Virus genome (UHGV): UHGV-1806156
Strand: one strand, 5' to 3'
Length of the DNA stretch: 13,526 nt
Origin: a virus
Part shown: positions 596 to 13,526 of the stretch, piece after piece
Numbering within the stretch: the first letter of the stretch is position 1
How the letters are laid out: every line of letters starts with the position of its first letter
The notes under the pieces: model-generated
Told to the model about the DNA's origin: nothing
Seen by the model: only the letters and a program-made list of their open reading frames with translations
Database searches by the model: none
Position numbers and translations under genes: made by a program

Positions 596-630
596 TATAA
601 ATAGGGGGAGAAACAGATCCGGAGGTCAAT

Positions 631-780
631 GTGGAAATTACTGATGCAATAGCGATCATCAACCTGGCTGTACTGTGGTGCGGTGTTGCCTACATAGCCG
701 GAGTGACTGCAATCGACAATCTTGAAGAAAAAATGATAGATAAATACAAAAAGATTGTTGACAATTTGACGAATGTCTGA
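631..780 (+). CDS. Small ORF, 49 aa, GTG start, predicted single transmembrane helix (VEITDAIAIINLAVLWCGVAYIAGVTAIDNLEEKMIDKYKKIVDNLTNV)
   Basis: GGAGG at 621-625 sits 5 nt before GTG 631, stop TGA at 778-780. Hydrophobic N-terminal stretch. Below the 60-aa cutoff of the ORF track. Confidence 0.3.
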   Translation: MEITDAIAIINLAVLWCGVAYIAGVTAIDNLEEKMIDKYKKIVDNLTNV

Positions 781-786
781 TAAAAT
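758..786 (+). promoter_or_regulatory. Sigma70-like promoter candidate (-35 TTGACA 758-763, 17-bp spacer, -10 TAAAAT 781-786), likely driving the operon starting at 913
   Basis: Near-consensus hexamers with 17-bp spacing, about 125 bp upstream of ATG 913. Confidence 0.45.
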
Positions 787-912
787 ATAAAGCATAGGGT
801 AATTCTCATCATAGTGAATTTCCTTTAGTAGACTGGCGGGGGCTTGTCTTAAGTTCCCGTTTCTTTTTAATCATATATCGCACAGGTTAGTGAGCTGACA
901 GGAGATTGAATC

Positions 913-1128: not shown

Positions 1129-1141
1129 CTGTGGGGGAACT

Positions 1142-2038
1142 ATGGCAAGTAATTACGGGGAGGTTTTTAATCCCCATTTCGAACGCCTCATTCAGTATAC
1201 TTTTGATAAACCAGTTGCAACAACAATTGCTAATAAAAAGACTGGAAAAACAAAAGAAAGATTTAAGTTAGACCTGACGGAGGTTACAATTTATGGAAAA
1301 ATGGCAGGTTTTCATTTAAACGGGCAAGAAATATTTATCTCAGAGCAGACCTTAGCAAAAATATGTGGAGTGAGCGATAGAAAAATCCGTGATTCGATTA
1401 AATCTCTAGAAAATGCCGGGCTTATTTCTAAAGATAATCGGAAAGGCATGTCTAATATTTACAAACTACTAATTACTCCTTCACAGGTTTGCAAAATGTG
1501 TGACGCTCAAGGAATACAACCTATGAGCAATGCAGGTGGTGAAGATAAACAGCCTCAGGAAGCCCCAAAACAAGCCGCACAGCAAGCTAAAAAGGCTAAA
1601 GTAGTGCAATTGCCTACCCAAGACACTAAAGCGCCTCAAATTAACGCTGTTAGTGACAAGCCACGCCGGGGCCGTCCTGTGAAAGATGTAACCGATGGAG
1701 GGTGGATCGCCCTGGGTGAGAGTGAGGCTAAAGGCATAATGCGATCACTGTGGGAAAGCAAATACAAAGATTTAAACAAACGTCGCCCGATCCTTTTGTC
1801 AAAGATTCAGGAGGATTTTTACACCACAGAAGAGGTAAGCCGACATAAAGGGAAAATAGAGGGTGAAATCTGGAAACCGGAAGAATACTGGCATTTAACC
1901 AGACCTGTGTTTATTTTTGCAAATAAGCTTATTGGGATGGGATTTGAAATATTGTTAGATAAAACCTGCGGAGATTATCCCGAAATATTGTGGAGAAATG
2001 TTAGAAAAAATAAAAAAGGCATTTTAGAGTTTAAATAA
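1142..2038 (+). CDS. Putative replication initiator-like protein with winged helix-turn-helix, 298 aa
   Basis: ATG at 1142 preceded by GGGGGA RBS, right after the stop of the 913 ORF; the track's 1085 start is an upstream in-frame extension. The segment FISEQTLAKICGVSDRKIRDSIKSLENAGLISKDNRKG resembles the wHTH of phage and plasmid replication initiators. Function from motif recognition only. Confidence 0.45.
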   Translation: MASNYGEVFNPHFERLIQYTFDKPVATTIANKKTGKTKERFKLDLTEVTIYGKMAGFHLNGQEIFISEQTLAKICGVSDRKIRDSIKSLENAGLISKDNRKGMSNIYKLLITPSQVCKMCDAQGIQPMSNAGGEDKQPQEAPKQAAQQAKKAKVVQLPTQDTKAPQINAVSDKPRRGRPVKDVTDGGWIALGESEAKGIMRSLWESKYKDLNKRRPILLSKIQEDFYTTEEVSRHKGKIEGEIWKPEEYWHLTRPVFIFANKLIGMGFEILLDKTCGDYPEILWRNVRKNKKGILEFK

Positions 2039-2085
2039 AAACACTGATAATCTTATTTTTTACAGTATTCTAAAGGAAATTTAAA

Positions 2086-2232
2086 ATGTATGGCGATTTT
2101 GATTATTACCTGGAAAAGGAAAAATATTTTGAAGATGAACTATCACAACATTTTTCATATTGGGAAGAATATTGTGGTTGGTTAGCTGAAGATCCAGCAG
2201 ATGAAGAAAACGATTCTGACATCCCTTATTGA
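2086..2232 (+). CDS. Small acidic ORF, 48 aa (MYGDFDYYLEKEKYFEDELSQHFSYWEEYCGWLAEDPADEENDSDIPY)
   Basis: ATG 2086 with AAGGAAA RBS about 6 nt upstream, stop TGA 2230-2232. Strongly acidic and aromatic-rich. Below the ORF-track cutoff. Confidence 0.35.
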   Translation: MYGDFDYYLEKEKYFEDELSQHFSYWEEYCGWLAEDPADEENDSDIPY

Positions 2233-2316
2233 TATCCCCAAATAAACTAAATAAATAAACTAAGCACTAGAACTAGATTGATTGCCCTGATCTTTTAAAC
2301 GTTCGGAGAATTAATC

Positions 2317-2805
2317 ATGTTCAAATCTAATCTTTCTGATTCTCAATTCGAAAAACTGGTAGCACTGCAGAAATATCTTCCCAGTGATGATCAACCAACA
2401 CGACAGGCTAAACACTTATTAGTCGAGGGCTTTACCCCTGAATTCGTGGCGGAATATACAGGCGTTAAACTTGATAAAGTCCAAAAACTATATAATGAGT
2501 CCTGGAATCCACGGTGTCGAGTTCCCCTCAGTGTCTATAACGACATAGATAGAGATAAAAATGTCTTCGAAGATCGCCGCCGCAAATCTCTTTTAATGTG
2601 GAATTGTGGGATGAATATTGAAGAGATAGCAAAAGAATTAAAAGTAACCTGCTTTCATATATGGGGCTTGTTGAGTGAAATCCTGCCACGTAAGGAGCTT
2701 AATCAACGTTTGCCTAAGCCCGGTAGTCGTGCTTATCGCGAATTTATATTCATCTACCGCCGCCATAGAAATAAAGTCCAGAAAGCAATGGCCCAGAAAG
2801 CTTGA
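2317..2805 (+). CDS. Putative DNA-binding regulator with two HTH-like segments, 162 aa
   Basis: GGAGA RBS before ATG 2317. Two segments with HTH character: GFTPEFVAEYTGVKLDKVQKL and GMNIEEIAKELKVTCFHIWGLL. Confidence 0.5.
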   Translation: MFKSNLSDSQFEKLVALQKYLPSDDQPTRQAKHLLVEGFTPEFVAEYTGVKLDKVQKLYNESWNPRCRVPLSVYNDIDRDKNVFEDRRRKSLLMWNCGMNIEEIAKELKVTCFHIWGLLSEILPRKELNQRLPKPGSRAYREFIFIYRRHRNKVQKAMAQKA

Positions 2806-2878
2806 GTTTTATCTCTTCGATTTATTTATTTTCGACTCACTTTAACCCCTTCCGGGGCTCTAATTTAAGGAATTCCAA

Positions 2879-3322
2879 ATGTCTCAAATCGCTAAATTAT
2901 TATCCCAGGTTATCAAAGCTATCGACGCTGAAGATTCAAAAGTTCGCCAGGATCTTTTAGATGGCAAGTTTACCAACACCCTGGCATTTACCCGTGACAA
3001 AGAGCACTTCTTAAAACACAGGCATCACGCTTTTCCTGAATGCAAGTCCGCTAATGGTGATGTTTTCTATGTCGATTTGGTGGTTATGGCATGTAGGCTG
3101 TGGATGATTCAGGACCTTATGCGCCAACACGGTGATGATCCTCTTATCAGCATGTGGAACAGCGCCCAGGATGGCTTTGTGATTGCTGCCTTATCCAAAT
3201 CAATGATTGAGGCAGAAGGGGCAAGCCTTCAGAACATGGCAGATCTCTTTGAAATAAGCGTAGGAATGATGCAGACCATGCTCCAAGCTGTCAAACCTCT
3301 CAAACTGGTTAATCTTGATTAA
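2879..3322 (+). CDS. Hypothetical protein, 147 aa
   Basis: AAGGA RBS before ATG 2879; no recognisable family. Confidence 0.55.
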   Translation: MSQIAKLLSQVIKAIDAEDSKVRQDLLDGKFTNTLAFTRDKEHFLKHRHHAFPECKSANGDVFYVDLVVMACRLWMIQDLMRQHGDDPLISMWNSAQDGFVIAALSKSMIEAEGASLQNMADLFEISVGMMQTMLQAVKPLKLVNLD

Positions 3323-3382
3323 GCTATTGATAAATAAGCACTCCCCATTTTTTGGGGGGTGCATCAATGAGAGGATATGCCT

Positions 3383-3766
3383 ATGAATATTGAAGAAATG
3401 ATAGTTGAATTCGAAGAGGGTGATTTCCTGGAAGAAGGGGAGTTTAGTTACTCCCATTTTAAACAGGCGTTATTTAGCAGCGATGATAAACCACACGTTA
3501 GTGATCTTAACGACGATGATTTATGTCGTTGGGTATGCACCCGCTTAAATGAAGATGGAAAGTATACAGGCCAAAACTTTCCAAATCTCTATTTCAAAGC
3601 ACAAACATTTGAGGAAGGGCAAAGAGTGAAAAACCTGGTCGATAAAATGCTGTCAGCCGGATATTTGCATAAAGAATTATTAAATCCTAAAGCTGAAAGC
3701 AAGCGCCATTATATTTTTGTGTGGACTATTGGCGATAAGTGTCCACTAAGACGCAAAGGCAAATGA
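3383..3766 (+). CDS. Acidic protein, 127 aa; possible tail assembly chaperone by position
   Basis: GAGAGGA (3369-3375) is 7 nt before ATG 3383; the track's ATG 3377 is too close to the RBS. Acidic N-terminus and position two genes upstream of the tape measure gene. Function is positional inference only. Confidence 0.4.
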   Translation: MNIEEMIVEFEEGDFLEEGEFSYSHFKQALFSSDDKPHVSDLNDDDLCRWVCTRLNEDGKYTGQNFPNLYFKAQTFEEGQRVKNLVDKMLSAGYLHKELLNPKAESKRHYIFVWTIGDKCPLRRKGK

Positions 3767-3767
3767 T

Positions 3768-4004
3768 ATGAATACCTACGAAAAGATTTATCAAAAACTG
3801 GTTAAGGACTCCGAAGACACGCCCGAAGGGGTGACAGTAGGTCACCTGCCAGAGGCAGCGAAAGAGGGGGCCACCATTATTAAAAGTGGCTCCCACACAG
3901 AAGGCCTCTCAATCGAAGAGCTGGCGGAGAAATATAATATTGATAAAGAGGCCCTGAAAAGGGCTATTTCATTATCAAAATCTTTAAGACAGGGCGAGGT
4001 ATAA
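3768..4004 (+). CDS. Hypothetical protein, 78 aa, translationally coupled between the acidic protein and the tape measure gene
   Basis: Starts 1 nt after the preceding stop and ends 1 nt before ATG 4006. Confidence 0.45.
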   Translation: MNTYEKIYQKLVKDSEDTPEGVTVGHLPEAAKEGATIIKSGSHTEGLSIEELAEKYNIDKEALKRAISLSKSLRQGEV

Positions 4005-4005
4005 A

Positions 4006-6153
4006 ATGGCAATGAAGGAAGTAGCCAGACTAACAAACGTTATTTACTGGGACTCTGATAAATCCTCCTGGCGAAAAGAAGTTAAACGGCTTGAGGATTA
4101 TAAAAAATCCTGGAAGAAAGCTACCGACGATATAGCTAAAGCTGATTTTAAATCTAATCAGGCTGTGCTCAGAACACAAAGAACACGCGCTAAGGTGGAA
4201 GAGCAGATAGCCAGAGCTCAGAGGAAACAACAGGAAGCACAGAAGAAACAACGTGCTCAGGCTGTCAGCCGTCTGACCGGGGGCAACAATGCCGAACTTA
4301 ACTCTATGCGCAAGTTCTACCAACAACAAGCCAGAGAAGCCGCCAGACAACAAAAACTGTTAGATCGTAGTGTTGGAGATGTTCAGCACAGAAAAGCACG
4401 TGTAGGGGCCAACAGTGCACGAATCAGCAGCATGTTTGATGGCTCCCTGGTTGCTCAGTTCCAGGGGCGCATTCAAAGAGTTAATGCTGATTATGCTAAA
4501 GGGGCTATAAACCTGCAGACCTATAATCAGAGGATGGCCCGACTCAGATCTGAAATGAAGATGGCAACAGCCGAAGCCGGAAAATTCCAGAGCAGACTAG
4601 ACAGAGCTGCGGCCGCAGGCTCCAGGCTGCATGACAACCTGGGGAAACTGAATTCCACACTGGGCAAGATAGCCATTGGCCTTACTGCCGCTGGCTGGGG
4701 TGTTCAGCGTGCTGTTAGTGGTGCTATGGGTAGCCTTGCAGATCGCAACAGTGCTTATTTCGGCTTAATGTCACAGAACAAGGATGATAAATCAAAAACT
4801 GATCAGCAGATGGCTTTTATCAAGAACACAGCCTACACCTACGGGATGGATCAGCGTGAGATGGAAGGCGGCTACATGCGCTTTGCTGCAGCTACCCCCA
4901 CCATGAAGGAATCTGATAAGCAGGCTCTCTTTGAGGCTATGGCTATTAAAGGCCGCTCAGTGGGTGCTACTGGCGAGCAACAGAACAGGGCGCTTGTTGC
5001 GGTCCAACAAATGGCTTCAAAAAATAAAGTCATGGCGGAGGAGCTGCGTGGGCAGCTGGCAGAAGCCTTTGCAGGCTCACAACAGGACTTCCAACAGGCC
5101 GCTATTGATGCCGGAATCATCAAAAATACCCAGGAATTCGATAAAGCCCTTAAAGATGGCAAAATCACCCTGGACAAGCTACTTCCTTCCCTAGTGAAAA
5201 TTTGGGGTGCTGCAAAAGAAACTAAAGCTTTTGCTGAATCCATGAAACAGCCAGAAGTAGCAATGCAGCGCATGAAAAACAGCTTTAACGAGCTGGCGAT
5301 TCAGTTTATGGGTGTTGTGGATCCTGCGGATGGCGTTATTAGCTTATCTGAATCTCTGATCTCCATCTTTGAAGACCTCACCACTGATATGGACGGCAGC
5401 GGGAGCGCGGCAAAACAGTTCGGTGAGGCAGTCGGGTCTGCCATGCGTGAGATCATGTATTGGGTAGGCTTCGCTAAGGGATATATTGAGGTCAAGGCTA
5501 AAGAGTTCGGCATGACCGGATCAGAGGTTGGCGAGCTTATCGGGAAACTGGTAGTCGGCTTAGCTGGTCTGAAAGTTATTACCACACTGCTTTCCCCTCT
5601 AACCGGATTTGTTTCACTTGTCACCCAACTGATTTCTCTGATAGGCAAGATTCCAGGTCTGGGCAATCTCGTTAAGGGTGCTGGCGGGGCAGTCGCTGGA
5701 AGCCCAACAACAGCATTAGCCGCTGGCAGTGCCGCAGGTGTGGGTGTTGGTGTCGCTGGCGCACTAGGCGCTAAGACGGTAGGTGAGAAGTTCAGAGGAT
5801 GGATGCAAAGCAAGGCTGATCAGTTCGGGGAGTGGGCTAAATCTAAAGGCCTGCTTAGCGATGAACAGGACGCTATGACCAAACCGGGGGCCTATAACCA
5901 TAGCTACATCAACAAGGGAGCTTCCTTTAATCCATATCCAACCATTAGCCCTTCACGTCCTACTCCTAGCACTGGTACGGCTATTCAGAATGGCGGATAT
6001 CAACCAGTCCAAGTAAATGTAGCCCCACAAGGTGAGATTTCCGGCAAATGGGAGATAACCATCGATGAGGGGGGAATTGCCAGGGTGATCCAGAAGGAAG
6101 TTAGCGATCAGTTGGATTGGAAAGCCACACAGGAATCTAACCAGCTTTTCTAA
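4006..6153 (+). CDS. Phage tail tape measure protein-like, 715 aa
   Basis: Long Q/R/K/A-rich helical N-terminal region, a central segment that reads like a tape-measure domain (AAATPTMKESDKQALFEAMAIKGRSVGATGEQQNRALVAVQQMASKNKVMAEELRGQLAEAF), and a Gly/Ala-rich hydrophobic block (LAGLKVITTLLSPLTGFVSLVTQLISLIGKIPGLGNLVKGAGGAVAG...). Recognised by eye, not by search. Confidence 0.6.
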   Translation: MAMKEVARLTNVIYWDSDKSSWRKEVKRLEDYKKSWKKATDDIAKADFKSNQAVLRTQRTRAKVEEQIARAQRKQQEAQKKQRAQAVSRLTGGNNAELNSMRKFYQQQAREAARQQKLLDRSVGDVQHRKARVGANSARISSMFDGSLVAQFQGRIQRVNADYAKGAINLQTYNQRMARLRSEMKMATAEAGKFQSRLDRAAAAGSRLHDNLGKLNSTLGKIAIGLTAAGWGVQRAVSGAMGSLADRNSAYFGLMSQNKDDKSKTDQQMAFIKNTAYTYGMDQREMEGGYMRFAAATPTMKESDKQALFEAMAIKGRSVGATGEQQNRALVAVQQMASKNKVMAEELRGQLAEAFAGSQQDFQQAAIDAGIIKNTQEFDKALKDGKITLDKLLPSLVKIWGAAKETKAFAESMKQPEVAMQRMKNSFNELAIQFMGVVDPADGVISLSESLISIFEDLTTDMDGSGSAAKQFGEAVGSAMREIMYWVGFAKGYIEVKAKEFGMTGSEVGELIGKLVVGLAGLKVITTLLSPLTGFVSLVTQLISLIGKIPGLGNLVKGAGGAVAGSPTTALAAGSAAGVGVGVAGALGAKTVGEKFRGWMQSKADQFGEWAKSKGLLSDEQDAMTKPGAYNHSYINKGASFNPYPTISPSRPTPSTGTAIQNGGYQPVQVNVAPQGEISGKWEITIDEGGIARVIQKEVSDQLDWKATQESNQLF

Positions 6154-6204
6154 TATTGTGATCAAAATCAATAAGTTAGCCTGACCGGATAAACTCCAGG
6201 CAAG

Positions 6205-6242
6205 AAAAAAGCCCCTAAGTGTTAACAAAGGGGCTCTTCTCC
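6205..6242. terminator. Hairpin terminator between convergent operons (stem AGCCCCT 6210-6216 / AGGGGCT 6229-6235)
   Basis: 7-bp GC-rich stem with 12-nt loop. On the minus strand it is followed by a run of six T (plus-strand A 6205-6210); on the plus strand by a weaker T-rich tract. Confidence 0.5.
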
Positions 6243-6266
6243 GGTATCCTTTTGATGCGGGGCGAA

Positions 6267-6310
6267 CCTGCTAACAAAAATCAACCTCTCGCGAGACTAA
6301 TGTTAGCAGG
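6267..6310. other. Stem-loop with perfect 10-bp stem (CCTGCTAACA / TGTTAGCAGG) whose 24-nt loop carries TCAACCTCTCGCGAGA
   Basis: Inverted repeat read directly. The loop contains the 10-bp palindrome TCTCGCGAGA and matches the leader motif at 10547 and 11089. Confidence 0.4.
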
Positions 6311-6655
6311 TTGCCGGAAGGTAAGTCAACTCCGGCCTATAAACCTTAAAGCGACTATAAAATCGCCCCGCCAATTGTGATGATCCGACCTTTGAGGCGG
6401 GTCCGGTGCCCAGGGGGGTGCAGTGATGCACAAACCAGGCAACGATAAACAGGCTAACAGTGATAGCGGCGCTCTCTCAGCGCACTAAATCCTAACCAGT
6501 CCGGGAAAGAGGCTGGCTCTATCGACCGCTCATGCACGGGACAATGCATACCTGATAAAGGATTCTCACAAGGGACCAATCGCGAGAAAAAGAAGTGGAA
6601 AGGGGCTGATTTGTGGTGTATCACTACGGCCTCAAAAGAACACTATTGTCTTTTT

Positions 6656-7114
6656 TCAGCCTCTCCCAACATTTGACCAGTATTTGATTGCACCGATCAA
6701 ATCATCATAGTGGCGCATTGCATCATTGAAGCCTTTATAGCTTGCCCATTGTGGGGAAACCTTGTTATTGCTGAATTGCCCACTAATCAGGATAGTCTCC
6801 AGAATGTCGGCATATCGCTTACCAATACGCTTTCTGACGGCCTCAGAGCTCCCACCCTTTACGATTGCATTAATCAGGGCTTTTGTGTGTCTCAGGCTCT
6901 CATAGAGCATTGCAGCGTGGGCAGATTCCATAAAGGAGCGCTTAGGCAAATCACCCCACCCCTCAGAGTGGATAGCCGCCAGTGTGGCGTAATTCAGGCC
7001 GCTATAGTGCTTTCCGTCATCCCAGCCAACCGCTACACCTTCCATCTGTGAGAGCTCTTTATGCAGCTTATCCATCATGCGCTTGTCTATGGTGCAACGG
7101 ACTTTCGGACTCAT
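6656..7114 (-). CDS. HK97 gp10-like head-tail (neck) family protein, 152 aa
   Basis: Segment GVAVGWDDGKHYSGLNYATLAAIHSEGWGDLPKRSF fits the pattern I associate with the HK97 gp10 family. GGAG RBS upstream; ATGA overlap with the preceding gene. Confidence 0.45.
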   Translation of the reverse strand: MSPKVRCTIDKRMMDKLHKELSQMEGVAVGWDDGKHYSGLNYATLAAIHSEGWGDLPKRSFMESAHAAMLYESLRHTKALINAIVKGGSSEAVRKRIGKRYADILETILISGQFSNNKVSPQWASYKGFNDAMRHYDDLIGAIKYWSNVGRG

Positions 7115-7914
7115 TTGTTGATCTCCGTGATGTCATCAAGCAACATGTTGGCCTTATCAATCATCGTTTCGTGGAATTCATTCGACACAACAGACTTATC
7201 ACCTGCGGCAATCTTTCCAGCTGCCTCTCCCTGTGCATATTCCCCGCGATGCTTAGCCCTGGTAGATTTCGTAGCAGCATTGCCAGCGTTACTACCCTCT
7301 TTAGCACTGTTAACAGCACCCTTTTGCTGTGTTTTATTCACCTTCTTACTGTTAGTGAAAACTCCGGCATTTTCGACCATCTTCACCTTGAAGGTGCGGA
7401 ATTCTTCAAAGGTGCAATCGATAGTGATGCAGTCACCGGAGGAAGAGCTACGCTTAACTTCACATTTCGTCATGATGAAGTTCTCAAGGAGTCCGGCATC
7501 TTCACTCACCAGGCTAACCAGCTGGCGCTTGTCTCTCATTTCCATAAGTGCCTGAACAGCGGCAGCAGGGCGCATAGATTCACGGGGATTATCTGGATCA
7601 GTGTTCCGGTCGATGTAGTTCTCTTTCCGGATAATGTGAGGGGAAGAGGTAATAATACCCGTAAAGCTGACAGATTTATCTTTAATGACGGCATGGTCTG
7701 ACATGGTGGTGCCATCTTCTACTGCATAGCTCGACTTTTCGACAGGGAACGAATAACGAACATCAGAGATAGAGTCAAAGAAGATAGCCACATTATCGGT
7801 ATAGTTGAAGCCATCCATTATATTTTTGTTTTGTGAATATCCCCCACACATAACAGTGAATGCGGGAGATCTCGACTCAGCTTGTTTTGCAGCTGTCAGA
7901 GCATCACTAGCCAT
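7111..7914 (-). CDS. Hypothetical protein, 267 aa (start placed at the ATG at 7914)
   Basis: Minus ORF 7111..7941 begins at a GTG; the in-frame ATG at 7914 has GGAGG 10 nt upstream. Normal amino-acid composition, unlike the Cys/Ser/Leu-rich plus-strand ORFs it overlaps. Confidence 0.55.
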   Translation of the reverse strand: MASDALTAAKQAESRSPAFTVMCGGYSQNKNIMDGFNYTDNVAIFFDSISDVRYSFPVEKSSYAVEDGTTMSDHAVIKDKSVSFTGIITSSPHIIRKENYIDRNTDPDNPRESMRPAAAVQALMEMRDKRQLVSLVSEDAGLLENFIMTKCEVKRSSSSGDCITIDCTFEEFRTFKVKMVENAGVFTNSKKVNKTQQKGAVNSAKEGSNAGNAATKSTRAKHRGEYAQGEAAGKIAAGDKSVVSNEFHETMIDKANMLLDDITEINK

Positions 7915-8042
7915 AGTAAACATGCCTCCAAATTGGTCCACTTCATGGATTTGGCTAAAGCCAAACCTGCAAAAGATGCAGGCAAAATAGAACTTATCGT
8001 TGCCCTGCGTGAATTCTGATAAAAAGACAGGGCTATCTATCG

Positions 8043-8303
8043 TTATTTTGCAAAACGATTATGCGCATTCAGGGCTTTTTTGCGGTCCTGGGCTTGTTTG
8101 CGTGCAATAAAATGTTCGAAAGTCTCGGCCCAGGTGCATTTATTATATTCACGGTATTTATGCATAGCCTGGCGGCTAACGTCATAGCAGGCGGCAAATG
8201 TGGAGATACGCAGGAATTCCGGCAGATCCTCGTCATCGATATGGATAATATCAAAAGGCACGTCGTCACGGTCGCCGTATAAAACAATTTTCATAAAAGA
8301 CAC
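8043..8303 (-). CDS. Small HTH DNA-binding protein, 86 aa
   Basis: GAGGTG RBS upstream of ATG 8303. HTH-like segment LRISTFAACYDVSRQAMHKY. Role unknown. Confidence 0.5.
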   Translation of the reverse strand: MSFMKIVLYGDRDDVPFDIIHIDDEDLPEFLRISTFAACYDVSRQAMHKYREYNKCTWAETFEHFIARKQAQDRKKALNAHNRFAK

Positions 8304-8327
8304 CTCAAAAACTTAAGACGGGGATAA

Positions 8328-8377
8328 CAAAAAAGGGAAGAGGGAAAGACCTATCCCCGATCTCTCACCTCTTCCCT
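8328..8377 (-). terminator. Hairpin terminator just downstream of the capsid gene (stem AGGGAAGAGG 8334-8343 / CCTCTTCCCT 8368-8377)
   Basis: 10-bp stem followed on the minus strand by a T run (plus-strand A 8328-8333), immediately after the capsid stop at 8384-8386. Confidence 0.45.
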
Positions 8378-8383
8378 TTGCTT

Positions 8384-9418
8384 TTATTTAGCCTTGGCAG
8401 CGGCGGCGGTGTTTTTAACACTCACTTTCACCACAACTTCAGGCATCATGTTCATGAAAGCATAAGAGGATTCAACGAAGATTTCGCGTTTGCCTCTGGA
8501 CTCTTCCATATACATGAAAGCTTCACGTGCAGCGCCGTTTGCCAGCTTCAGGTTGCGAGCGCAAGGGCCGAAAAATTGAGTATAAACGCCCACCATATCG
8601 CCTAACGCATGCGGCTGGAACTGTGGGACTAGATAAGCAGTATTCTCTGGCAGACTATCCATTTGCACCACACGCAGGGCTAAGCCCGGAATGCGGAAGG
8701 TCGGGAAGCCCGGCAGAATATCCTCAGGGAACATCAGACCTTTGTCGGTAATGTTCTGATTGCCGAACAACAGCACTTTACGGAGCAGTTCATCAGTCTG
8801 AATAGCGGTAAACAGTTCAGCACGGCAGAACAGGGTGAAACCACGCAGGGCACGAACGACACCACGCTGTTTAACCTTGCTCAGTGCAACCAGGTCCTGC
8901 AGCTGTTTAAGGATATCTTTAGCTAGATCCACTTCTGAAGTGGTTTGCTGTGCGCCCAGCAGTTCGCACACATTCAGTTCTTTACCCTTGGTGAGGATAA
9001 TTTTGTTCTCAAAGAGAGCAAGCTGGCGTGCTTCTTCGTGGGTCTGGCGTAAGCCTTCGCCAAGCTGAATAACACGACGAGCGGTTACAGACTCTAGATT
9101 CTCTTCGGAATCTTTGCCCGGAACACGGATACCCTGCCAGTCAGAAGGATAAATAGCACTTGATGCGGCAGTGAATGCCATATCACCCGTGCCCGTTTCA
9201 CGCTCATCTGCGGTAATGGTCGCCATCTGTTCACCGTAGCGCGGATACTGACCGAAAGCGGTTTGTTTCACCTGGCGAACTTTGTCATATTCAAATTTAA
9301 AGGTATTGCACAGAGCAGTAGTGTTGAAGATATCCATTGCAGAAATAATCATGTTATCCGGCGGGATATCTTTAATCAGACCACACAGATCGCGAACTTC
9401 GAATTCTTTCTTAGCCAT
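8384..9418 (-). CDS. Major capsid protein, lambda gpE family-like, 344 aa
   Basis: ATG at 9418 with AAGGAGG RBS 8 nt upstream; the track's extension to 9517 has no RBS. N-terminus FEVRDLCGLIKDIPPDN fits the L-x-G-x-[IV]-x-x-x-PP pattern seen in gpE-family capsids. Size (lambda gpE is 341 aa) and a small beta-rich gene directly upstream agree. Confidence 0.6.
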   Translation of the reverse strand: MAKKEFEVRDLCGLIKDIPPDNMIISAMDIFNTTALCNTFKFEYDKVRQVKQTAFGQYPRYGEQMATITADERETGTGDMAFTAASSAIYPSDWQGIRVPGKDSEENLESVTARRVIQLGEGLRQTHEEARQLALFENKIILTKGKELNVCELLGAQQTTSEVDLAKDILKQLQDLVALSKVKQRGVVRALRGFTLFCRAELFTAIQTDELLRKVLLFGNQNITDKGLMFPEDILPGFPTFRIPGLALRVVQMDSLPENTAYLVPQFQPHALGDMVGVYTQFFGPCARNLKLANGAAREAFMYMEESRGKREIFVESSYAFMNMMPEVVVKVSVKNTAAAAKAK

Positions 9419-9429
9419 TTTCAACCTCC

Positions 9430-9765
9430 TTATTGTGCAACACGCAAATCGCCATTGCTGGCAGCAACAACAGCGGCTAAGCCGTCTTTGTCCACATAGG
9501 CCGGATTGATGTAGCAACCTTTGTTCGCAACAACGATAAAGGAATCACCAACTTCAGCACGTTCTACAACCAGCAGCGGAGTTTTATCTGTGTGCGTTGC
9601 TTTAACGAAGGTCTCAACCTCGCCAGCCTCAGTCACCACAACAACAGTGCCAGCCGGAATCTCAGCCTTAACTTTGTTTTTAACTTCAACGTCGCGAATA
9701 CTAAATTGCTCATCTGCGGCGTATGAAATGATGTGTCCGCGTGTGCGGATAGTCATATCTCTCAT
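9430..9765 (-). CDS. Putative head decoration protein (lambda gpD-like), 111 aa
   Basis: AGGTGA RBS before ATG 9765. Small, beta-rich (Val/Thr/Ala/Gly), immediately upstream of the capsid gene as in lambda D-E. Assignment is positional and compositional. Confidence 0.4.
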   Translation of the reverse strand: MRDMTIRTRGHIISYAADEQFSIRDVEVKNKVKAEIPAGTVVVVTEAGEVETFVKATHTDKTPLLVVERAEVGDSFIVVANKGCYINPAYVDKDGLAAVVAASNGDLRVAQ

Positions 9766-10093
9766 TTGATCACCTGCGATTTAAATTAACTCCCCTCAAA
9801 GGGCTCAGGTATAACCTCTCAAACCACGACAGGCTCGGGCCGAAAAGTTATGCCGGAAATCTAAAGGGGGATTGATATAAGGAGAGGGAGATAGCCCCGC
9901 ACCGTCCAAGCGGGGGCTATTCCACATGGGGAAACCAACAACAGTTGGCTGATAGTTCACTGCATGGTTACAGGTTGCTAGAGAGCACTATCACGAAAGG
10001 CACTCCCCCGGATCAGTTCAGGCTGCGGTCACATCAGCGGGGAAATACCTTTCGGGATAGCTACCCACACAGAAAACCCGCAAAAGAAAACTG

Positions 10094-10102
10094 TGTGGAT
10101 AA
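10094..10102 (-). promoter_or_regulatory. DnaA box (TTATCCACA on the minus strand) inside an inverted repeat (CCACACAG 10065-10072 / CTGTGTGG 10091-10098)
   Basis: Exact 9-mer match to the DnaA box consensus, read directly. Confidence 0.35.
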
Positions 10103-10248
10103 CTAGCCCTGTAGGGAGAATAAGGAGAATTAATCGACCACTCTAAGATGATCATGGGTAGTGTTATTTATAAGGCGGCACCGCTACCTGGTCGCCTTTA
10201 CTTTGGAGGAAAATACGGCAAATCACCTTCGCTAAATGATTCACGGTA

Positions 10249-10268
10249 TACTGTATATTATATCAGTA
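10249..10268. promoter_or_regulatory. LexA (SOS) box-like palindrome TACTGTATATTATATCAGTA
   Basis: CTG-N10-CAG architecture with flanking TA and an AT-rich core, as in gammaproteobacterial LexA boxes. Lies in the large intergenic region between the capsid operon and the small-peptide operon. Confidence 0.45.
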
Positions 10269-10546
10269 TTTACTCACATTGTCAACACCCTGATTATATA
10301 AATTCTAATAATTAGCGTAGTAACGGTATTTTCAGACTGCTATCAATCCCATCAATACGTCATCTCATCGCATCTATCATAACTTTTTCATTCGTGATAG
10401 ATATCTTTTGATCAATATCAATGTTTTCCGGGGATTTGCCCGGCTATAGTTCGAATCAAGGAAGGGGAGCATTGATAGAGACACCCAAAGGGGTGACTGA
10501 AAGTCACCTGGCATAGCCAGTGAAAGCACCCAACCGAACAAACAAA

Positions 10547-10564
10547 TCAACTTCTCGCAAAAGG
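10547..10564 (+). promoter_or_regulatory. Conserved leader motif TCAACTTCTCGCAAAAGG, 26 nt upstream of ATG 10573
   Basis: Repeated with the same spacing upstream of ATG 11115 (11089-11107); a third variant sits in the hairpin loop at 6281-6296. Confidence 0.4.
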
Positions 10565-10572
10565 TGATAGTT

Positions 10573-10695
10573 ATGGGTATCAAGAACAGTGCCAGCGCAT
10601 GGCAAAAGGCCAGGTTTCATCACCCACACATTGTTAAGGCAATTGAGGTGGTTGGAGTTTTAGCCCTGATGTTAGCTCTGTGTGTGGAGGTGTGA
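10573..10695 (+). CDS. Small hydrophobic peptide, 40 aa (MGIKNSASAWQKARFHHPHIVKAIEVVGVLALMLALCVEV)
   Basis: AAGGTG RBS before ATG 10573; C-terminal hydrophobic helix. Below the ORF-track cutoff. Confidence 0.35.
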   Translation: MGIKNSASAWQKARFHHPHIVKAIEVVGVLALMLALCVEV

Positions 10696-10696
10696 G

Positions 10697-10777
10697 ATGG
10701 GCAAAGGAGGCAAAGCATTTTTAATAGGTCTGGCTATCCTGGATGTTCTACTAATCATGATTAAGCGGAGTTTATGA
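10697..10777 (+). CDS. Small hydrophobic peptide, 26 aa (MGKGGKAFLIGLAILDVLLIMIKRSL)
   Basis: ATG 10697 starts 1 nt after the previous stop, with AGGTG just upstream. One predicted TM helix and a basic C-terminus. Confidence 0.3.
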   Translation: MGKGGKAFLIGLAILDVLLIMIKRSL

Positions 10778-10796
10778 ACAGCATTGAGAGGAGTTT

Positions 10797-11057
10797 ATGA
10801 CGGGGGCTAAAGATATCAGGAGACTGAGGGAAGAGCTGATAGCTGAAATTAAAACTAAGGCAAAGCAAATGGAGATAGCCGCACAAATGGATGTAGCGGA
10901 ACAGATGTACAAGATGGTTGAGGAGGGAACGCCACGACAGGTTATCGCTAAAACCTTCGGTGTGGGGATCGCCACCGTGCACAGAAGGCTGAAAGCATAT
11001 GCTGACTACCACAATATCGAGAGAAAGGAGGATGGGAGATTCAGGAAAGCTAAATGA
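10797..11057 (+). CDS. Small DNA-binding protein with a Hin/resolvase-type C-terminal HTH, 86 aa, no recombinase catalytic domain
   Basis: GAGAGGAG RBS before ATG 10797. C-terminus EEGTPRQVIAKTFGVGIATVHRRLKA closely matches the Hin invertase HTH; the N-terminus is a short charged helix only. Confidence 0.55.
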   Translation: MTGAKDIRRLREELIAEIKTKAKQMEIAAQMDVAEQMYKMVEEGTPRQVIAKTFGVGIATVHRRLKAYADYHNIERKEDGRFRKAK

Positions 11058-11088
11058 TGTAAACGGTCCAACAGGTTACTAACTTAAT

Positions 11089-11107
11089 TCAACTTCTCGC
11101 AAAGGGG
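11089..11107 (+). promoter_or_regulatory. Second copy of the leader motif (TCAACTTCTCGCAAAGGGG), 26 nt upstream of ATG 11115
   Basis: 15/15 identity with the copy at 10547 over TCAACTTCTCGCAAA, same distance to the start codon. Confidence 0.4.
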
Positions 11108-11114
11108 TACCACT

Positions 11115-11702
11115 ATGAACATTAAAACTATCATTGCAGCCCTCACCATTGCCTTTAGTGCCAACACCGCAGCTATTGATGTAGGGGCCGTAAAAGATGC
11201 ATCTTGTGCTGATAAACTGGCGGCACTTGATGCGGGATTCGATGCACCCCAGGGCTATCAAATGGGGCTATCTCTTAAAAATATTATTCTCCCCATGGAA
11301 TCTGGCGCTTATGTATACGGAGCGATAGGAAAACTGGAGAAGCCGGAAATTGACCTGCAGGGTGTGAGAGCGAAGATCACTAAAAGAAATGAAAGCCTTT
11401 GTGATGTAGCTGAAATAGCTTTCATGTCAGACGATGAAAAATCTATTTTAGTCTTTTGCAAAGATAGCGATGATAATGATCGCTTCTTTAAGATCACCCA
11501 CAACAGGCCAATCTCTTTCTACTCTAATGCTACTATGGGCGCGGGTATGCAGTGGCTGAAGAGAGCTAAATTAACTGAGATCGACATTGAAAAAGAGGCC
11601 AATGCAGGCAGTTATGGATTCTGGAAAGGCTGGACTAAATACACGTTCCAACAATGCGGCATCGATAGTCAGGCCTACGACAACGGATTTTGGTTTTTCT
11701 AA
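11115..11702 (+). CDS. Secreted or outer-membrane protein with N-terminal signal peptide, 195 aa
   Basis: N-terminus MNIKTIIAALTIAFSANTAA has the basic/hydrophobic/A-x-A shape of a Sec signal peptide. C-terminus ends in aromatics (GFWFF), as many outer-membrane beta-barrels do. No family recognised. Confidence 0.55.
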   Translation: MNIKTIIAALTIAFSANTAAIDVGAVKDASCADKLAALDAGFDAPQGYQMGLSLKNIILPMESGAYVYGAIGKLEKPEIDLQGVRAKITKRNESLCDVAEIAFMSDDEKSILVFCKDSDDNDRFFKITHNRPISFYSNATMGAGMQWLKRAKLTEIDIEKEANAGSYGFWKGWTKYTFQQCGIDSQAYDNGFWFF

Positions 11703-11722
11703 CCTACTAAGTTAATCCCGCC

Positions 11723-11750
11723 AGGGGGCCATCACGGCCCCTTTTTATTT
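11723..11750 (+). terminator. Rho-independent terminator after the signal-peptide gene
   Basis: GC-rich stem GGGGGCC (11724-11730) / GGCCCC (11736-11741) with 5-nt loop, followed by TTTTTATTT. Confidence 0.55.
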
Positions 11751-11800
11751 ATCCCCTATTTAACCCCTATTTAATGGGTATTTAATGCCTATTTATTGAT
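11746..11800. repeat. Five tandem 11-bp units of form TATTTAANNNN (helically phased A/T tracts)
   Basis: TATTTATCCCC, TATTTAACCCC, TATTTAATGGG, TATTTAATGCC, TATTTATTGAT read directly; an 11-bp period suggests bent DNA or phased binding sites. Confidence 0.5.
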
Positions 11801-13063
11801 TTAATCCGTTTTATGCCACAACCGCCCGGTTGACAGAGTAAGATAGAGTGTGTAACCCTCTTTCGTAATACCAATAAAATCAATAGTTTAGCTCAATTGG
11901 CCTTTTCTCTATTTTTGTCAAATTTAACATACCCTCAAAAACTGCAAAATCTGGCTGCAAGATTATCTGCAGCTGGATTTCTTGCGCCTCAATTTGTGGT
12001 ATCACCCTGACTAGTTTGTGCATAAATTGAACAGTTTTTAACATTTCCTCCTCACCTGGTAACCACACAAAAAGCTAAAAACGAGGCACAGATAATCTTA
12101 GAGGCCTGTTTTCTTGTTATCACTCTGGTAACGTCGTAGAAGTGATTTTGATGAAAGATGACCTACCCTATTACACCCCCATTTTTTGTTATCACAATTG
12201 CATCCTGTGCGGTGTATGGCTATGTGCTGAAAGCGGTCTTATGTGTGGGTGTCAGAAATATCCATTAGCGGTATTAATACCCGTCGGAGATTCGTCTGAG
12301 GTGCCAGGCAGGCGCTCCCCCACCTCCCTTTTTTCTTCTAACAATTCTCAAATATCACACCACTGCCCACCACGTTGCTATTATGTTAATTCTTAAGCTT
12401 TGCTGTATGTTGTGCACATTATTTATTCAGGTGGCTGTACGTAAATTCTGTGCCCACTGATCATGATTTTTAAATCAGATTTTGTAGTGCGCTTTATTAG
12501 TGTAGATAAGATCTATTATGTTAAATGCATCTCTCTCAACACTTAAAATCAATGACTTAGAGGTTAGGATGCACTAACACCCCACACAGCACATTAGACA
12601 TATAGATGTCTATACCCCACATTTTTGATTGTTTTGTAGTCATTCCCCTGATCATTTAACCAGTATAGTTTGCTCCCTGCAGACCACAAAATCGGAATTT
12701 ACATCTGATTAACATAATCTGTTAGCATGATCACCATTACCCACACAACAATAACCACATGTAAGCCTCTTCAGGCAATTTATCGGCGTGTTGGTGTGAA
12801 CAGTCTTTCATGTTCTTTATGTATTCATTGTCCTGTGTGAGGGAAGGATGGACTGCCCCAGGGGCCATACTTATGATGCCCGGTCAACATACCTGTCGAT
12901 AAAATCAAAGGGTGTTGATCTGCATATTTCCCACACATGAGAGGAAATCAAAGCAAAGAGAGAGGAGAGAGGTTTGTTAGTCAAAATAGGTCAATAAGGG
13001 TGTATTTCCACACAGACATGATGAGATAACCTGTCGGTATTTCCTACAACTCTTGCACATACC

Positions 13064-13341
13064 CCGGAAGATTTTTCCGGTGTCTCCCACCTGTGAAGAA
13101 TTTTCACACCTGTAAATCCATACAGCACGGTAAAAACTACCGCACCACCTGTGAAAATATTTTACTACTCCCTTTAGTCATACCCCTTTCAGTCATACTC
13201 AGGCACCACACCCCGGTAAATATTTCCCTACCACCCCGGAGAATTTCTCCGGTGTCCAAGCTGTATCCAATACATACCCCGGAAAATTTCTCCGCACTAC
13301 TACGGAAGATTTCTCCGGTGTACCCCGGAAGATTTCTCCGA
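13064..13341. repeat. Iteron-like array of at least 8 copies of a 17-bp quasi-palindrome (consensus about CCGGARRATTTCTCCGG)
   Basis: Copies at 13064-13080, 13236-13252 (perfect palindrome CCGGAGAATTTCTCCGG), 13279-13295, 13302-13318 and 13325-13341, the last three spaced exactly 23 bp apart. Related variants at about 13094-13108, 13150-13164 and 13214-13226. Confidence 0.6.
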
Positions 13342-13428
13342 CTAATAAATAAAGTAATAGACCACACAATAGATCCCCCCTAACCCCCAAGGGGAATGGG
13401 GAGGGATCAGAGAGTGGGGAAGGTTTTC

Positions 13429-13526
13429 TAAGGGAAAAGCTTAACCCACAAATGAAAGCCTAAAGAGCATGAGCGACTCTTCAGGCAATCTGTGTGGGGA
13501 ACATCGGAGCAGTATGTGAAGTATGA
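13429..13526. repeat. Right copy of the 98-bp direct repeat
   Basis: Matches 1-98 with one mismatch (C at 13482 vs T at 54). Confidence 0.9.

What the first reader, a model, noticed from the sequence alone, without database searches (positions are those of the whole stretch)
13064..13341. Dense iteron array of 17-bp palindromic repeats with exact 23-bp phasing
At least five canonical and three variant copies of CCGGARRATTTCTCCGG lie within 280 bp, the last three exactly 23 bp apart. This is the signature of an iteron origin or a cooperative operator array. Together with the wHTH replication-like gene at 1142-2038 it suggests autonomous replication. The array could also be a packaging or recombination site.
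Basis: seen in the sequence. Interest (0 to 1): 0.6.

Follow-up and report, generated by a model that had tools for sequence, protein, structure and literature searches.

The report
Iteron replication origin of phage-like plasmid
The repeat cluster is most likely the replication origin of a small E. coli plasmid that carries phage structural genes; the plasmid's own initiator protein appears to bind the repeats, and repeats and protein have changed specificity together at least six times among near-identical relatives.

Summary
Five copies of CCGGARRATTTCTCCGG (at most 1 mismatch) lie at 13064-13341, against 0.09 expected by chance. The last three are exactly 23 bp apart.

The window is a circular plasmid of about 13.43 kb. 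It carries homologues of rV5-like phage structural genes and has no terminase, portal or integrase.

In 19 related plasmids the array keeps the same place and layout: four palindromic sites spaced 43/23/23 bp, then a conserved AT-rich stretch, then a hairpin. The site sequence falls into six classes. Each class matches one class of recognition helix in the winged-helix N-terminal domain of the protein encoded at 1142-2038 (19 of 19; Mantel r 0.82). The protein's C-terminal domain (r -0.03) and all other genes (r at most 0.41) reassort freely. Four of five advance predictions on newly fetched relatives were met.

No sigma-70-like promoter adjoins the array. The cumulative GC-skew minimum falls 49 bp after the last repeat.

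I read it as an iteron origin built like lambda ori, with a modular replicon like that of Vibrio PLE satellites. It is a new member of a known kind. The "variant copies" are sites of other specificity classes.

One lead is unproven. Some virulent E. coli phages encode a Rep-like winged helix fused to a nuclease-like domain, which resembles the origin-directed nuclease of phage ICP1. No binding or replication experiment exists.

The parts
13236..13252 (.). Iteron R1 (class A), CCGGAGAATTTCTCCGG, a perfect 8-1-8 palindrome
   Evidence: Folds as a hairpin with z -3.8. Relatives of all six classes have a cognate site at the equivalent position.
13279..13295 (.). Iteron R2 (class A), CCGGAAAATTTCTCCGC, 43 bp after R1
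13302..13318 (.). Iteron R3 (class A), ACGGAAGATTTCTCCGG, 23 bp after R2
13325..13341 (.). Iteron R4 (class A), CCGGAAGATTTCTCCGA, 23 bp after R3 and directly abutting the AT-rich tract
13342..13374 (.). Conserved AT-rich tract CTAATAAATAAAGTAATAGACCACACAATAGAT (three AATARA units at 12-bp spacing); candidate DNA-unwinding element
   Evidence: Present directly after R4 in all 20 elements whatever the iteron class. 77% A+T over 30 bp, and among the 5% least stable 40-mers of the plasmid, though not the single least stable.
13372..13408 (.). Imperfect C/G-rich inverted repeat GATCCCCCCTAACCCCCAAGGGGAATGGGGAGGGATC, just after the AT-rich tract
   Evidence: -11.2 kcal/mol as single-stranded DNA, z only -1.8. 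Conserved with variation in relatives. Lambda ori has an inverted repeat at the same relative position.
13064..13080 (.). Distal class-A-like site CCGGAAGATTTTTCCGG (core T for C); left junction of an inserted block
   Evidence: The block 13081-13235 is missing in relative L020, where a single site occupies this position.
13030..13048 (.). Heterologous class-D-like site CCTGTCGGTATTTCCTACA
   Evidence: Matches the cognate repeats of CP035869, CP074841, L023 and L026.
13090..13109 (.). Heterologous class-C-like site CCTGTGAAGAATTTTCACAC
13127..13143 (.). Heterologous class-B/F-like site ACGGTAAAAACTACCGC
13148..13165 (.). Heterologous class-C-like site CCTGTGAAAATATTTTAC
   Evidence: The cognate type of CP178698, L022, L024 and L028.
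13213..13229 (.). Heterologous class-B-like site CCGGTAAATATTTCCCT, 23 bp before R1
   Evidence: The cognate type of AP045055 and CP043822.
1142..1525 (+). Rep N-terminal winged-helix DNA-binding domain (aa 1-128). The recognition helix is aa 79-91, DRKIRDSIKSLEN (nt 1376-1414); the wing is aa 95-109.
   Evidence: Pfam HTH_36 at 31 bits against a cut-off of 25. PHROG replication-initiator and O-like families at 1e-11 to 1e-7. AlphaFold2 model. The helix class tracks the iteron class in 19 of 19 elements.
1526..1684 (+). Rep disordered linker (aa 129-181) with the conserved PQEAPKQAxQQ motif; recombination joint between the N- and C-terminal modules
   Evidence: pLDDT below 50 over aa 129-181. 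Alignments.
1685..2038 (+). Rep C-terminal domain (aa 182-298, allele C1 of three); presumed replisome-recruitment module
758..786 (+). Strongest sigma-70-like promoter upstream of g913-rep (TTGACA-17-TAAAAT with TG); a second lies at 567-595
   Evidence: No class-A site lies near either promoter.
13458..13486 (-). Conserved terminator-like hairpin on the minus strand, positioned to stop leftward transcripts before the origin
   Evidence: Conserved in most relatives; absent in CP020521 and diverged in CP134895.

Best explanation
The array is the vegetative replication origin (oriV) of a circular plasmid of about 13.4 kb.

Proposed mechanism:
- Dimers of the plasmid's initiator (Rep, 298 aa, gene 1142-2038) bind the four promoter-distal-to-rep, phased, palindromic 17-bp iterons R1-R4 (13236-13341) through the recognition helix of the N-terminal winged-helix domain.
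- The resulting nucleoprotein complex opens the adjacent conserved AT-rich tract (13342-13374).
- The Rep C-terminal domain, joined by a disordered linker, recruits the helicase or replisome for theta replication.

Rep N-terminal domain plus iterons form one exchangeable specificity module. The C-terminal domain is a second, independently exchangeable module. The upstream sites at 13030-13229 belong to other specificity classes and sit on an inserted block. They are not needed for a minimal origin; they may be relics or may titrate foreign Rep proteins.

Shown here: the repeats, their phasing, the conserved architecture, and the covariation with the Rep helix. Inferred: binding as dimers, melting of the AT tract, helicase recruitment, and direction of replication.
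For: 1. Real, non-random, localised repeats.

2. The element is an autonomous plasmid. The window ends overlap. All relatives are circular plasmids of 13.2-13.7 kb: 0 chromosomal places, 7 of 5426 complete E. coli genomes. Rep homologues sit almost only on contigs of 13.3-14.4 kb.

3. Rep is the only replication-like gene. It passes Pfam HTH_36. Its best PHROG matches are 'replication initiation protein', 'O-like' and 'DnaD-like helicase loader'. Of 27 distant homologues of its N-terminal domain, 10 match DnaD_N, 6 Phage_rep_O, 5 RepL and 3 RP-C.

4. Covariation. Across 19 elements, six recognition-helix classes map one-to-one onto six iteron classes. Mantel r with the proximal 95 bp of the array is 0.82 for the helix, 0.79 for HTH plus wing, -0.03 for the Rep C-domain, 0.06-0.41 for eleven other genes, and 0.11 for DNA between array and rep. 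The same helix class occurs with two or three different C-domain alleles and still carries the same iterons.

5. Predictions written down before looking were met for P0014, P0021, P0013, P0073 and, though not written down in advance, for P0010 too. Two natural helix/wing chimeras (P0016, P0025) follow the helix.

6. Residue-to-base covariation. Arg at helix position 6 goes with G/C at site positions -6/+6 (classes A, B, F). Ile or Val goes with T/A (classes E, C, D).

7. The architecture is invariant across classes: R1-43-R2-23-R3-23-R4, then CTAATAGATAAAGTAATAGA..., then a hairpin.

8. The design matches lambda ori: four 18-bp palindromic iterons at 20/24/23 bp, an AT-rich tract, then an inverted repeat; O protein binds as dimers (PMC7466680).

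9. The one element with an unrelated Rep N-domain (CP020521) has acquired its own private triple repeat nearby.

10. The detrended cumulative GC-skew minimum is at 13390 and the maximum at about 5900-6600, roughly opposite on the circle.

11. There is an experimentally proven precedent for exactly this kind of covariation. In PLE satellites the RepA N-domain and ori co-vary, and cognate pairs are required for replication (PMC8263062).
Against: - No experiment exists: neither binding nor origin function is shown.
- Covariation proves a specific Rep-repeat interaction, not that the interaction initiates replication.
- Rep shows no detectable sequence similarity to lambda O, and none to Rep_3 or RepA_N models. 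Fold search gives only generic winged-helix matches, and the C-domain has no known fold.
- No clear DnaA boxes or IHF site lie next to the array. The AT-rich tract is not the least stable segment of the plasmid.
- GC skew is confounded by gene orientation.
- The 19 elements are related, so Mantel p-values overstate independence.
- CP020521 keeps a class-B array without a class-B Rep.
- One of my advance guesses failed: I expected a new iteron type for P0004. Its iterons are class C, which fits its SRPTxIxxIKS helix.
Confidence: 0.8

Rival explanations
1. Operator array. The wHTH protein is mainly a transcriptional regulator (a repressor or activator of the element's life cycle), and the repeats are its cooperative operators. 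The true origin lies elsewhere.
For: Palindromic sites bound by dimeric winged-helix proteins are typical operators. Fold search returns mostly repressors such as CodY, ArsR/SmtB and MarR. NCBI sources name homologues GntR or MarR regulators. Covariation alone cannot separate an operator from an origin.
Against: No sigma-70-like promoter lies in or beside the array. The rep promoters are about 650 bp away and carry no cognate site. The array is followed by a conserved AT-rich tract and an inverted repeat, as in lambda ori. The N-domain's sequence neighbours are enriched for initiator families. The plasmid has no other candidate initiator or repeat cluster. A disordered linker with a separately swappable C-domain fits an initiator better than a small repressor.
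Confidence: 0.1
2. Copy-number or incompatibility locus, or a partition centromere. Rep, or another protein, binds the array to pair plasmids or to segregate them, rather than to initiate.
For: Iteron plasmids use extra iteron clusters for handcuffing. Centromeres are also phased repeat arrays. TubR-type centromere binders are winged-helix proteins (a TubR fragment appears among the weak fold hits). The distal heterologous sites have no obvious role in initiation.
Against: The plasmid has no ParA, ParM or TubZ partner gene. The four cognate sites abut an AT-rich tract. The minimal arrays of relatives L020 and L026 consist only of these four sites, so they must serve the essential function if Rep is the initiator. 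Copy control by the same iterons is compatible with the best explanation and does not exclude it.
Confidence: 0.05
3. Packaging (pac or cos) or recombination site, recognised by a helper phage's terminase or by a recombinase.
For: The element lacks a terminase and must be packaged through some cis site if it is a satellite. Small-terminase sites can be repeat arrays. Recombination has evidently occurred at the iterons: the block 13081-13235 is flanked by two class-A sites.
Against: The repeat sequence differs among elements whose capsid, neck and tail genes are 95-100% identical, and it tracks Rep instead. No similar sequence was found in 50,697 phage records. No arrays were found in IMG/VR or in phage muut. 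The plasmid encodes no recombinase.
Confidence: 0.03

Closest known systems
Bacteriophage lambda ori / O protein (lambdoid origins)
   Same: Both have four phased iterons, each an imperfect inverted repeat of 17-19 bp (lambda spacing 20/24/23 bp; here 43/23/23 bp). In both, an AT-rich tract of 30-40 bp follows directly, then an inverted repeat. Lambda O binds as dimers (PMC7466680). That the O N-terminal domain sets ori specificity is from my own knowledge. PHROG 'replication initiation O-like' families match Rep.
   Different: The origin lies about 1.2 kb upstream of rep, not inside the initiator gene. There is no detectable sequence similarity to lambda O (BLASTP E 1.3; hhalign probability 0.07%). 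No P-like helicase-loader gene was recognised. The replicon belongs to a plasmid, not a temperate phage.
PLE (Vibrio cholerae phage satellite) RepA/ori replicon modules
   Same: Semi-palindromic iterons lie in a non-coding region. The initiator's N-terminal DNA-binding domain co-varies with the origin, separately from the C-terminal recruitment domain. The module is swapped between otherwise similar elements (PMC8263062). The element also looks like a satellite of large virulent myoviruses.
   Different: The PLE RepA N-domain belongs to the RepA_N family, which Pfam does not detect here. PLE has three iterons of about 30 bp; here there are four of 17 bp. PLE is integrated and replicates only on infection; this element is a resident plasmid. 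Here the C-domain also has three alleles, and there are at least six specificity classes against two in PLE.
Classical iteron plasmids (pSC101, R6K, RK2, F, P1; Rep_3-type initiators)
   Same: Phased repeats at about 22-23 bp next to an AT-rich region, with a plasmid-encoded winged-helix initiator (established knowledge).
   Different: Rep does not match Rep_3. The sites are palindromes, implying dimer binding, rather than asymmetric direct repeats bound by monomers. No DnaA boxes were found. There is no inverted half-iteron operator at the rep promoter. MOB-suite assigns no replicon type.
SaPI / PICI Rep-ori
   Same: A satellite origin made of iterons around an AT-rich stretch, with allele-specific Rep recognition (from my own knowledge).
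   Different: SaPI Rep is a helicase with an associated primase, and its ori lies just 3' of rep. Here Rep has no helicase domain.

Membership tests
Iteron-type theta origin (generic) | Cluster of at least 3 phased repeats of 17-22 bp at about two helical turns | tested here: met
   R1-R4 are 17 bp with spacing 43/23/23 bp.
Iteron-type theta origin (generic) | Adjacent AT-rich unwinding region | tested here: met
   13342-13374 is 77% A+T and conserved in all 20 elements. It is not the unique stability minimum.
Iteron-type theta origin (generic) | Cognate initiator encoded in cis that recognises the repeats | tested here: met
   Indirect only: helix class tracks repeat class in 19 of 19 elements, Mantel r 0.82. 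Physical binding was not tested.
Iteron-type theta origin (generic) | The fragment supports Rep-dependent replication | not testable with these tools
   Needs cloning and transformation.
Rep_3 iteron plasmids (RepA, pi, RepE, TrfA) | Initiator with the Rep_3 (PF01051) two-winged-helix fold | tested here: not met
   No Rep_3 hit at E up to 0.01. The model shows one winged helix plus an unrelated C-domain.
Rep_3 iteron plasmids (RepA, pi, RepE, TrfA) | DnaA boxes at the origin and an inverted-repeat operator at the rep promoter | tested here: not met
   Only 1-mismatch DnaA-like 9-mers, at least 170 bp from the array. No cognate site at the promoters.
Lambdoid ori / O | Initiator homologous to lambda O (Phage_rep_O) | tested here: inconclusive
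   No Pfam Phage_rep_O hit and no pairwise or profile similarity. Against that, PHROG O-like families match at 7e-9 to 1e-6, and 6 of 27 distant N-domain homologues match Phage_rep_O.
Lambdoid ori / O | Four palindromic iterons, then an AT-rich tract, then an inverted repeat | tested here: met
   Direct comparison with the annotated lambda ori.
Lambdoid ori / O | Origin located inside the initiator gene; P-type helicase loader downstream | tested here: not met
   The origin is 1.2 kb upstream of rep. Downstream genes have no loader signature.
RepA_N replicons (staphylococcal plasmids, PLE) | RepA_N N-terminal domain | tested here: not met
   No Pfam hit. Only weak Foldseek matches to 4pql, 4pt7 and 5kbj (E about 0.01, TM 0.42).
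RepA_N replicons (staphylococcal plasmids, PLE) | Modular covariation of the DNA-binding domain with ori, independent of the C-domain | tested here: met
   The precedent is PMC8263062.
Partition centromere | Partner NTPase (ParA, ParM or TubZ) encoded nearby | tested here: not met
   None among the ORFs.

The most novel reading that the evidence does not exclude
The iteron array may be both the origin and the target in a phage-satellite arms race, in three linked steps.

1. The plasmid family would be an extrachromosomal satellite of large virulent E. coli myoviruses (rV5-like or phAPEC8-like).

2. Some of those phages (muut, inny, Mt1B1_P17, BI-EHEC) encode a protein that fuses a Rep-class-A-like winged helix to a T5orf172/MUG113 nuclease-like domain. 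The local match to Rep is 39% identical (E 5e-14), and the recognition helix reads SDRQVR against Rep's SDRKIR. This would be an E. coli counterpart of the ICP1 origin-directed nuclease Odn, cutting class-A iterons such as those in this window.

3. That pressure, together with the stand-alone Rep N-domain paralogues carried by some plasmids, would explain why at least six Rep-N-domain/iteron specificities circulate on near-identical backbones.
Probability: 0.25. Interest if true: 0.8.

Novelty: new member of a known kind. Interest (0 to 1): 0.5.

Why it matters
It assigns an origin and an initiator to a plasmid family that replicon-typing schemes do not recognise and that I could not find described in the literature. 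That matters for plasmid typing and for predicting incompatibility.

The family offers a natural allelic series for a small winged-helix initiator: six helix-site pairs, two helix/wing chimeras, and a simple Arg-to-G versus Ile/Val-to-T correlation. This is ready material for working out a DNA-recognition code and for designing orthogonal replicons.

If the phage-encoded Rep-mimic nuclease really targets these iterons, it would be a second, independent case of origin-directed anti-satellite immunity, in the best-studied bacterium. It would also mark these plasmids as plasmid-borne satellites of virulent phages. [quoted passage not shown]

Tried and rejected
- Rfam scan of the whole window: only two sub-threshold chance hits, so no known RNA lies in or near the array.
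- Megablast of the whole window against phages: no match. blastn of the array against phages: one chance hit.
- Exact 17-mer scan of IMG/VR: five unrelated contigs. Searches for relatives through the 162-aa neighbour protein in IMG/VR and GTDB genomes found none.
- NCBIfam: no family-level hit.
- DnaA-box and IHF scans: nothing convincing at the array.
- The hairpin after the AT tract is not significantly more stable than shuffled sequence (z -1.8).
- Other helix-turn-helix proteins as the binder (g913, the 86-aa HTH at 10797, g2317, g3768): rejected. Identical alleles occur with different iteron classes, and Mantel r is at most 0.41.
- ORFs overlapping the array (13093-13383 plus strand, 13137-13367 minus strand): rejected as coding, because the region is replaced or differs by indels between relatives.
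- Literature searches for this plasmid family, its accessions, or satellites of rV5-like phages found nothing.
- Class B and class D Rep N-domains find no phage homologue.
- Phage muut has no class-A site and no array of any class. This is only weak support for the nuclease idea, because few sites are expected by chance anyway (my rough estimate, not computed).

Full report
**Observation**

The repeats are real. A search for CCGGARRATTTCTCCGG with up to three mismatches finds sites only between 13064 and 13341. There are eight matches counting both strands, against 0.09 +/- 0.31 in 200 dinucleotide-preserving shuffles. The plus-strand copies start at 13064, 13236, 13279, 13302 and 13325. Only 13236 is exact, and it is a perfect 8-1-8 palindrome. 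The last three are exactly 23 bp apart. A related site at 13213 lies 23 bp before 13236. The core GARRATTTCTC occurs nowhere else in the molecule.

**What the molecule is**

Bases 1-97 of the window repeat bases 13430-13526 with one mismatch. The window is therefore a circular assembly of about 13,429 bp, and the array lies about 1.2 kb upstream of gene 1142-2038.

Near-identical relatives are all circular E. coli plasmids of 13.2-13.7 kb. One is a three-fold concatemer. None is chromosomal, and only 7 of 5,426 complete E. coli genomes carry one.

The plasmid encodes:
- a tape-measure protein (phrog_5255);
- a Dit-like tail-tube initiator, about 50% identical to those of rV5-like phages;
- a Neck1 protein;
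- a divergent major capsid protein, about 24% identical to rV5-like capsid proteins.

It has no terminase, portal or integrase. It looks like a plasmid-borne phage satellite. I found no description of it in the literature. MOB-suite assigns it no replicon type.

**The candidate initiator**

Gene 1142-2038 encodes a 298-aa protein, called Rep here.
- It passes the Pfam HTH_36 threshold.
- Its best PHROG matches are replication-initiation, O-like and DnaD-like families.
- An AlphaFold2 model shows an N-terminal winged helix, with the recognition helix at aa 79-91 and the wing at aa 95-109. A disordered linker follows (aa 129-181), then a compact C-terminal domain.
- Fold search gives only generic winged-helix matches for the N-domain and nothing for the C-domain.
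- A search of 1.84 billion representative proteins with the N-domain alone returned 42 hits. Among 27 distant ones, 10 also match DnaD_N, 6 Phage_rep_O, 5 RepL and 3 RP-C. Its sequence neighbourhood is therefore enriched for initiator winged helices.

**Comparative evidence, the core of the argument**

In nine database relatives the array sits at the same place. It lies between a conserved left anchor and the conserved motif CTAATAGATAAAGTAATAGA..., which is followed by a C/G hairpin. The three or four repeats next to that motif differ in sequence between elements.

Rep is by far the most variable protein: 30-100% identity, where the capsid, neck and Dit tail proteins and most other proteins are about 92-100% identical and the tape-measure protein 71-97%. 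It is a mosaic of an N-domain, a PQEAPKQAxQQ linker and a C-domain.

A homology search showed about 100 Rep clusters, nearly all on contigs of 13.3-14.4 kb. Many N-domain alleles are combined with three C-domain alleles.

Before fetching more elements I wrote down predictions.

| Rep fetched | N-domain / C-domain | Iterons found | Prediction |
|---|---|---|---|
| P0014 | window-type N, C2 | class A | met |
| P0021 | N1' | class E | met |
| P0013 | N5, C1 | class C | met |
| P0073 | N3, C3 | class D | met |
| P0010 | N4 | class F | not listed; fits class F |
| P0004 | new helix allele | class C | failed; I expected a new class |

The P0004 helix, SRPTIIKAIKS, shares SRPTxIxxIKS with the other class-C Reps, so the result still fits helix-determined specificity. 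Two natural chimeras, which pair one class's helix with another's wing, follow the helix.

Over 19 elements, six helix classes map one-to-one onto six iteron classes. Each helix class that was sampled more than twice occurs with two or three C-domain alleles.

Mantel correlations with the proximal 95 bp of the array:

| Compared with | r |
|---|---|
| Rep recognition helix | 0.82 |
| Rep HTH plus wing | 0.79 |
| Rep wing alone | 0.36 |
| Rep C-domain | -0.03 |
| Eleven other genes | 0.06-0.41 |
| DNA between array and rep | 0.11 |

At the residue level, Arg at helix position 6 goes with G/C at site positions -6/+6 (classes A, B, F). Ile or Val goes with T/A (classes E, C, D).

The one element with an unrelated Rep N-domain, CP020521, has a private triple repeat found in no other element.

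The elements are related, so the p-values are optimistic. Even so, recombination has clearly separated the N-domain from the much closer C-domain, and the array from the intervening genes. It has never separated helix class from iteron class. That pattern is what selection for a cognate protein-DNA pair predicts.

**Origin rather than operator or packaging site**

The layout is the same in all six classes: R1, 43 bp, R2, 23 bp, R3, 23 bp, R4. Then comes a 33-bp tract that is 77% A+T and holds three AATARA units at 12-bp spacing. An imperfect inverted repeat follows.

This is the design of lambda ori as annotated in NC_001416. Lambda has four 18-bp palindromic iterons at 20/24/23 bp, an AT-rich tract, then an inverted repeat. 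O protein binds them as dimers (PMC7466680).

- No sigma-70-like promoter lies in or beside the array.
- The strong promoters for the rep operon, at 567-595 and 758-786, carry no cognate site.
- The detrended cumulative GC-skew minimum is at 13390 and the maximum is roughly opposite on the circle. Gene orientation confounds this.
- A packaging role is unlikely. The repeats differ between elements with near-identical structural genes, and nothing similar exists in phage records.
- No partition NTPase is encoded.

**The "variant copies"**

The sites at 13030, 13090, 13127, 13148 and 13213 match classes D, C, B/F, C and B. The block 13081-13235 is flanked by two class-A sites (13064 and 13236). 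It is absent from relative L020, whose array is just four class-A sites. The minimal origin is therefore R1-R4 plus the AT tract. The distal sites are relics of iteron-mediated recombination, or possibly decoys for foreign Reps.

**Comparison with known systems**

It works like lambda ori/O and like the modular RepA/ori replicons of PLE satellites. In PLE, covariation of the RepA N-domain with ori was shown experimentally to reflect cognate specificity (PMC8263062).

It is not a member of those families by sequence:
- no similarity to lambda O;
- no Rep_3 or RepA_N domain;
- the origin lies outside the rep gene;
- no DnaA boxes.

I file it as a new member of the known kind "iteron origin with a winged-helix initiator".

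**An unproven lead**

The window's Rep, which is class A, matches a protein in four virulent Stephanstirmvirinae phages: muut, inny, Mt1B1_P17 and BI-EHEC. Class B and class D N-domains do not.

- That protein (muut gp094, 332 aa) has two HTH_36 winged helices. The second is 39% identical to Rep aa 41-110 (E 5e-14). Its helix reads SDRQVRNIINM, against SDRKIRDSIKS in class A.
- Its C-terminal domain matches MUG113 at 22.5 bits, against a cut-off of 22.3, and T5orf172 below threshold.
- That C-terminal domain is homologous to annotated homing or GIY-YIG endonucleases in many phages.
- This is the architecture of ICP1 Odn, which mimics the PLE RepA DNA-binding domain, cuts the PLE origin at its iterons, and is thought to select for replicon-module swapping (PMC8263062).
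- The muut genome has no class-A site within three mismatches and no array of any class.

Cautions:
- The nuclease-domain score is marginal.
- muut shares almost nothing else with the plasmid.
- The structural genes point to rV5-like phages, not phAPEC8-like phages.
- Absence of sites in muut is expected by chance.

I give this reading about 25%.

**Verdict**

- The array itself is an ordinary kind of feature in a new, undescribed replicon.
- The diversifying specificity series and the possible phage counter-weapon make it moderately interesting.

Noticed in passing
window 63, 160, 262, 12242 (+); 3892, 7843, 10064, 10623, 12581, 12740, 12930 (-): The 8-mer TGTGTGGG occurs 12 times against 0.41 expected. 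Copies flank the origin region in inverted orientation. In relatives they bound variable cassettes of about 100 bp downstream of the array. Function is unknown; it could be a helper-phage promoter element, a cassette junction or a protein-binding site.
   Followed up: partly
whole window (1-13429, circular): The element is a 13.4-kb plasmid. It carries homologues of rV5-like phage tape-measure, Dit/tail-tube initiator, Neck1 and major capsid genes, and no terminase, portal or integrase. It occurs in 7 of 5426 complete E. coli genomes and on over 100 Rep-cluster contigs of about 13.5 kb from E. coli, Shigella and E. albertii. I found no publication. It may be an undescribed plasmid-borne satellite of virulent myoviruses.
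   Followed up: partly
L031:2090-3088 (phage muut gp094); L033:502-1488 (Mt1B1_P17 gp053); L032 (BI-EHEC): Virulent E. coli phages encode a protein with two Rep-like winged helices and a MUG113/T5orf172 nuclease-like domain. The second helix is closest to the window's class-A Rep. The architecture is that of the ICP1 origin-directed nuclease.
   Followed up: partly
L027 9603-9989; L010 (CP035869) record 6451-6816; L020 8577-8951; L021 2618-3136; L023 7857-8357; L025 3520-4017; L026 9464-9982: Several relatives carry, just upstream of rep, a stand-alone winged-helix paralogue with no C-domain. In L027 it has the class-B helix, although the plasmid's own iterons are class D'. In five others it is homologous to the MarR-like N-domain that forms the Rep of CP020521. 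These may be trans-acting origin blockers or incompatibility factors.
   Followed up: no
L012 (CP020521), oriented coordinates 492-600 after the array: This relative has replaced the Rep N-domain and C-domain but kept the PQEAPKQAAQQ linker. It has gained three private repeats, TATCAACATATCAATNTGATATA, and retains an orphan class-B array.
   Followed up: partly
[not shown]
   Followed up: partly
window 630-779 (+) and 835-861: A conserved 49-aa hydrophobic ORF lies between the two rep-operon promoters. A terminator-like hairpin lies between the second promoter and g913-rep. Together they suggest attenuation or antisense control of rep expression.
   Followed up: no
L014 (NZ_CP043822.1, 39,610 bp): One database record is a head-to-tail trimer of the element, with small differences between the copies, including frameshifted genes. 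It is either a real multimer or a long-read assembly artefact.
   Followed up: no
window 11703-13063 and 98-560: About 2.4 kb around the origin has no annotated gene in any relative and no Rfam hit, which is unusually much non-coding DNA for a 13-kb element.
   Followed up: no
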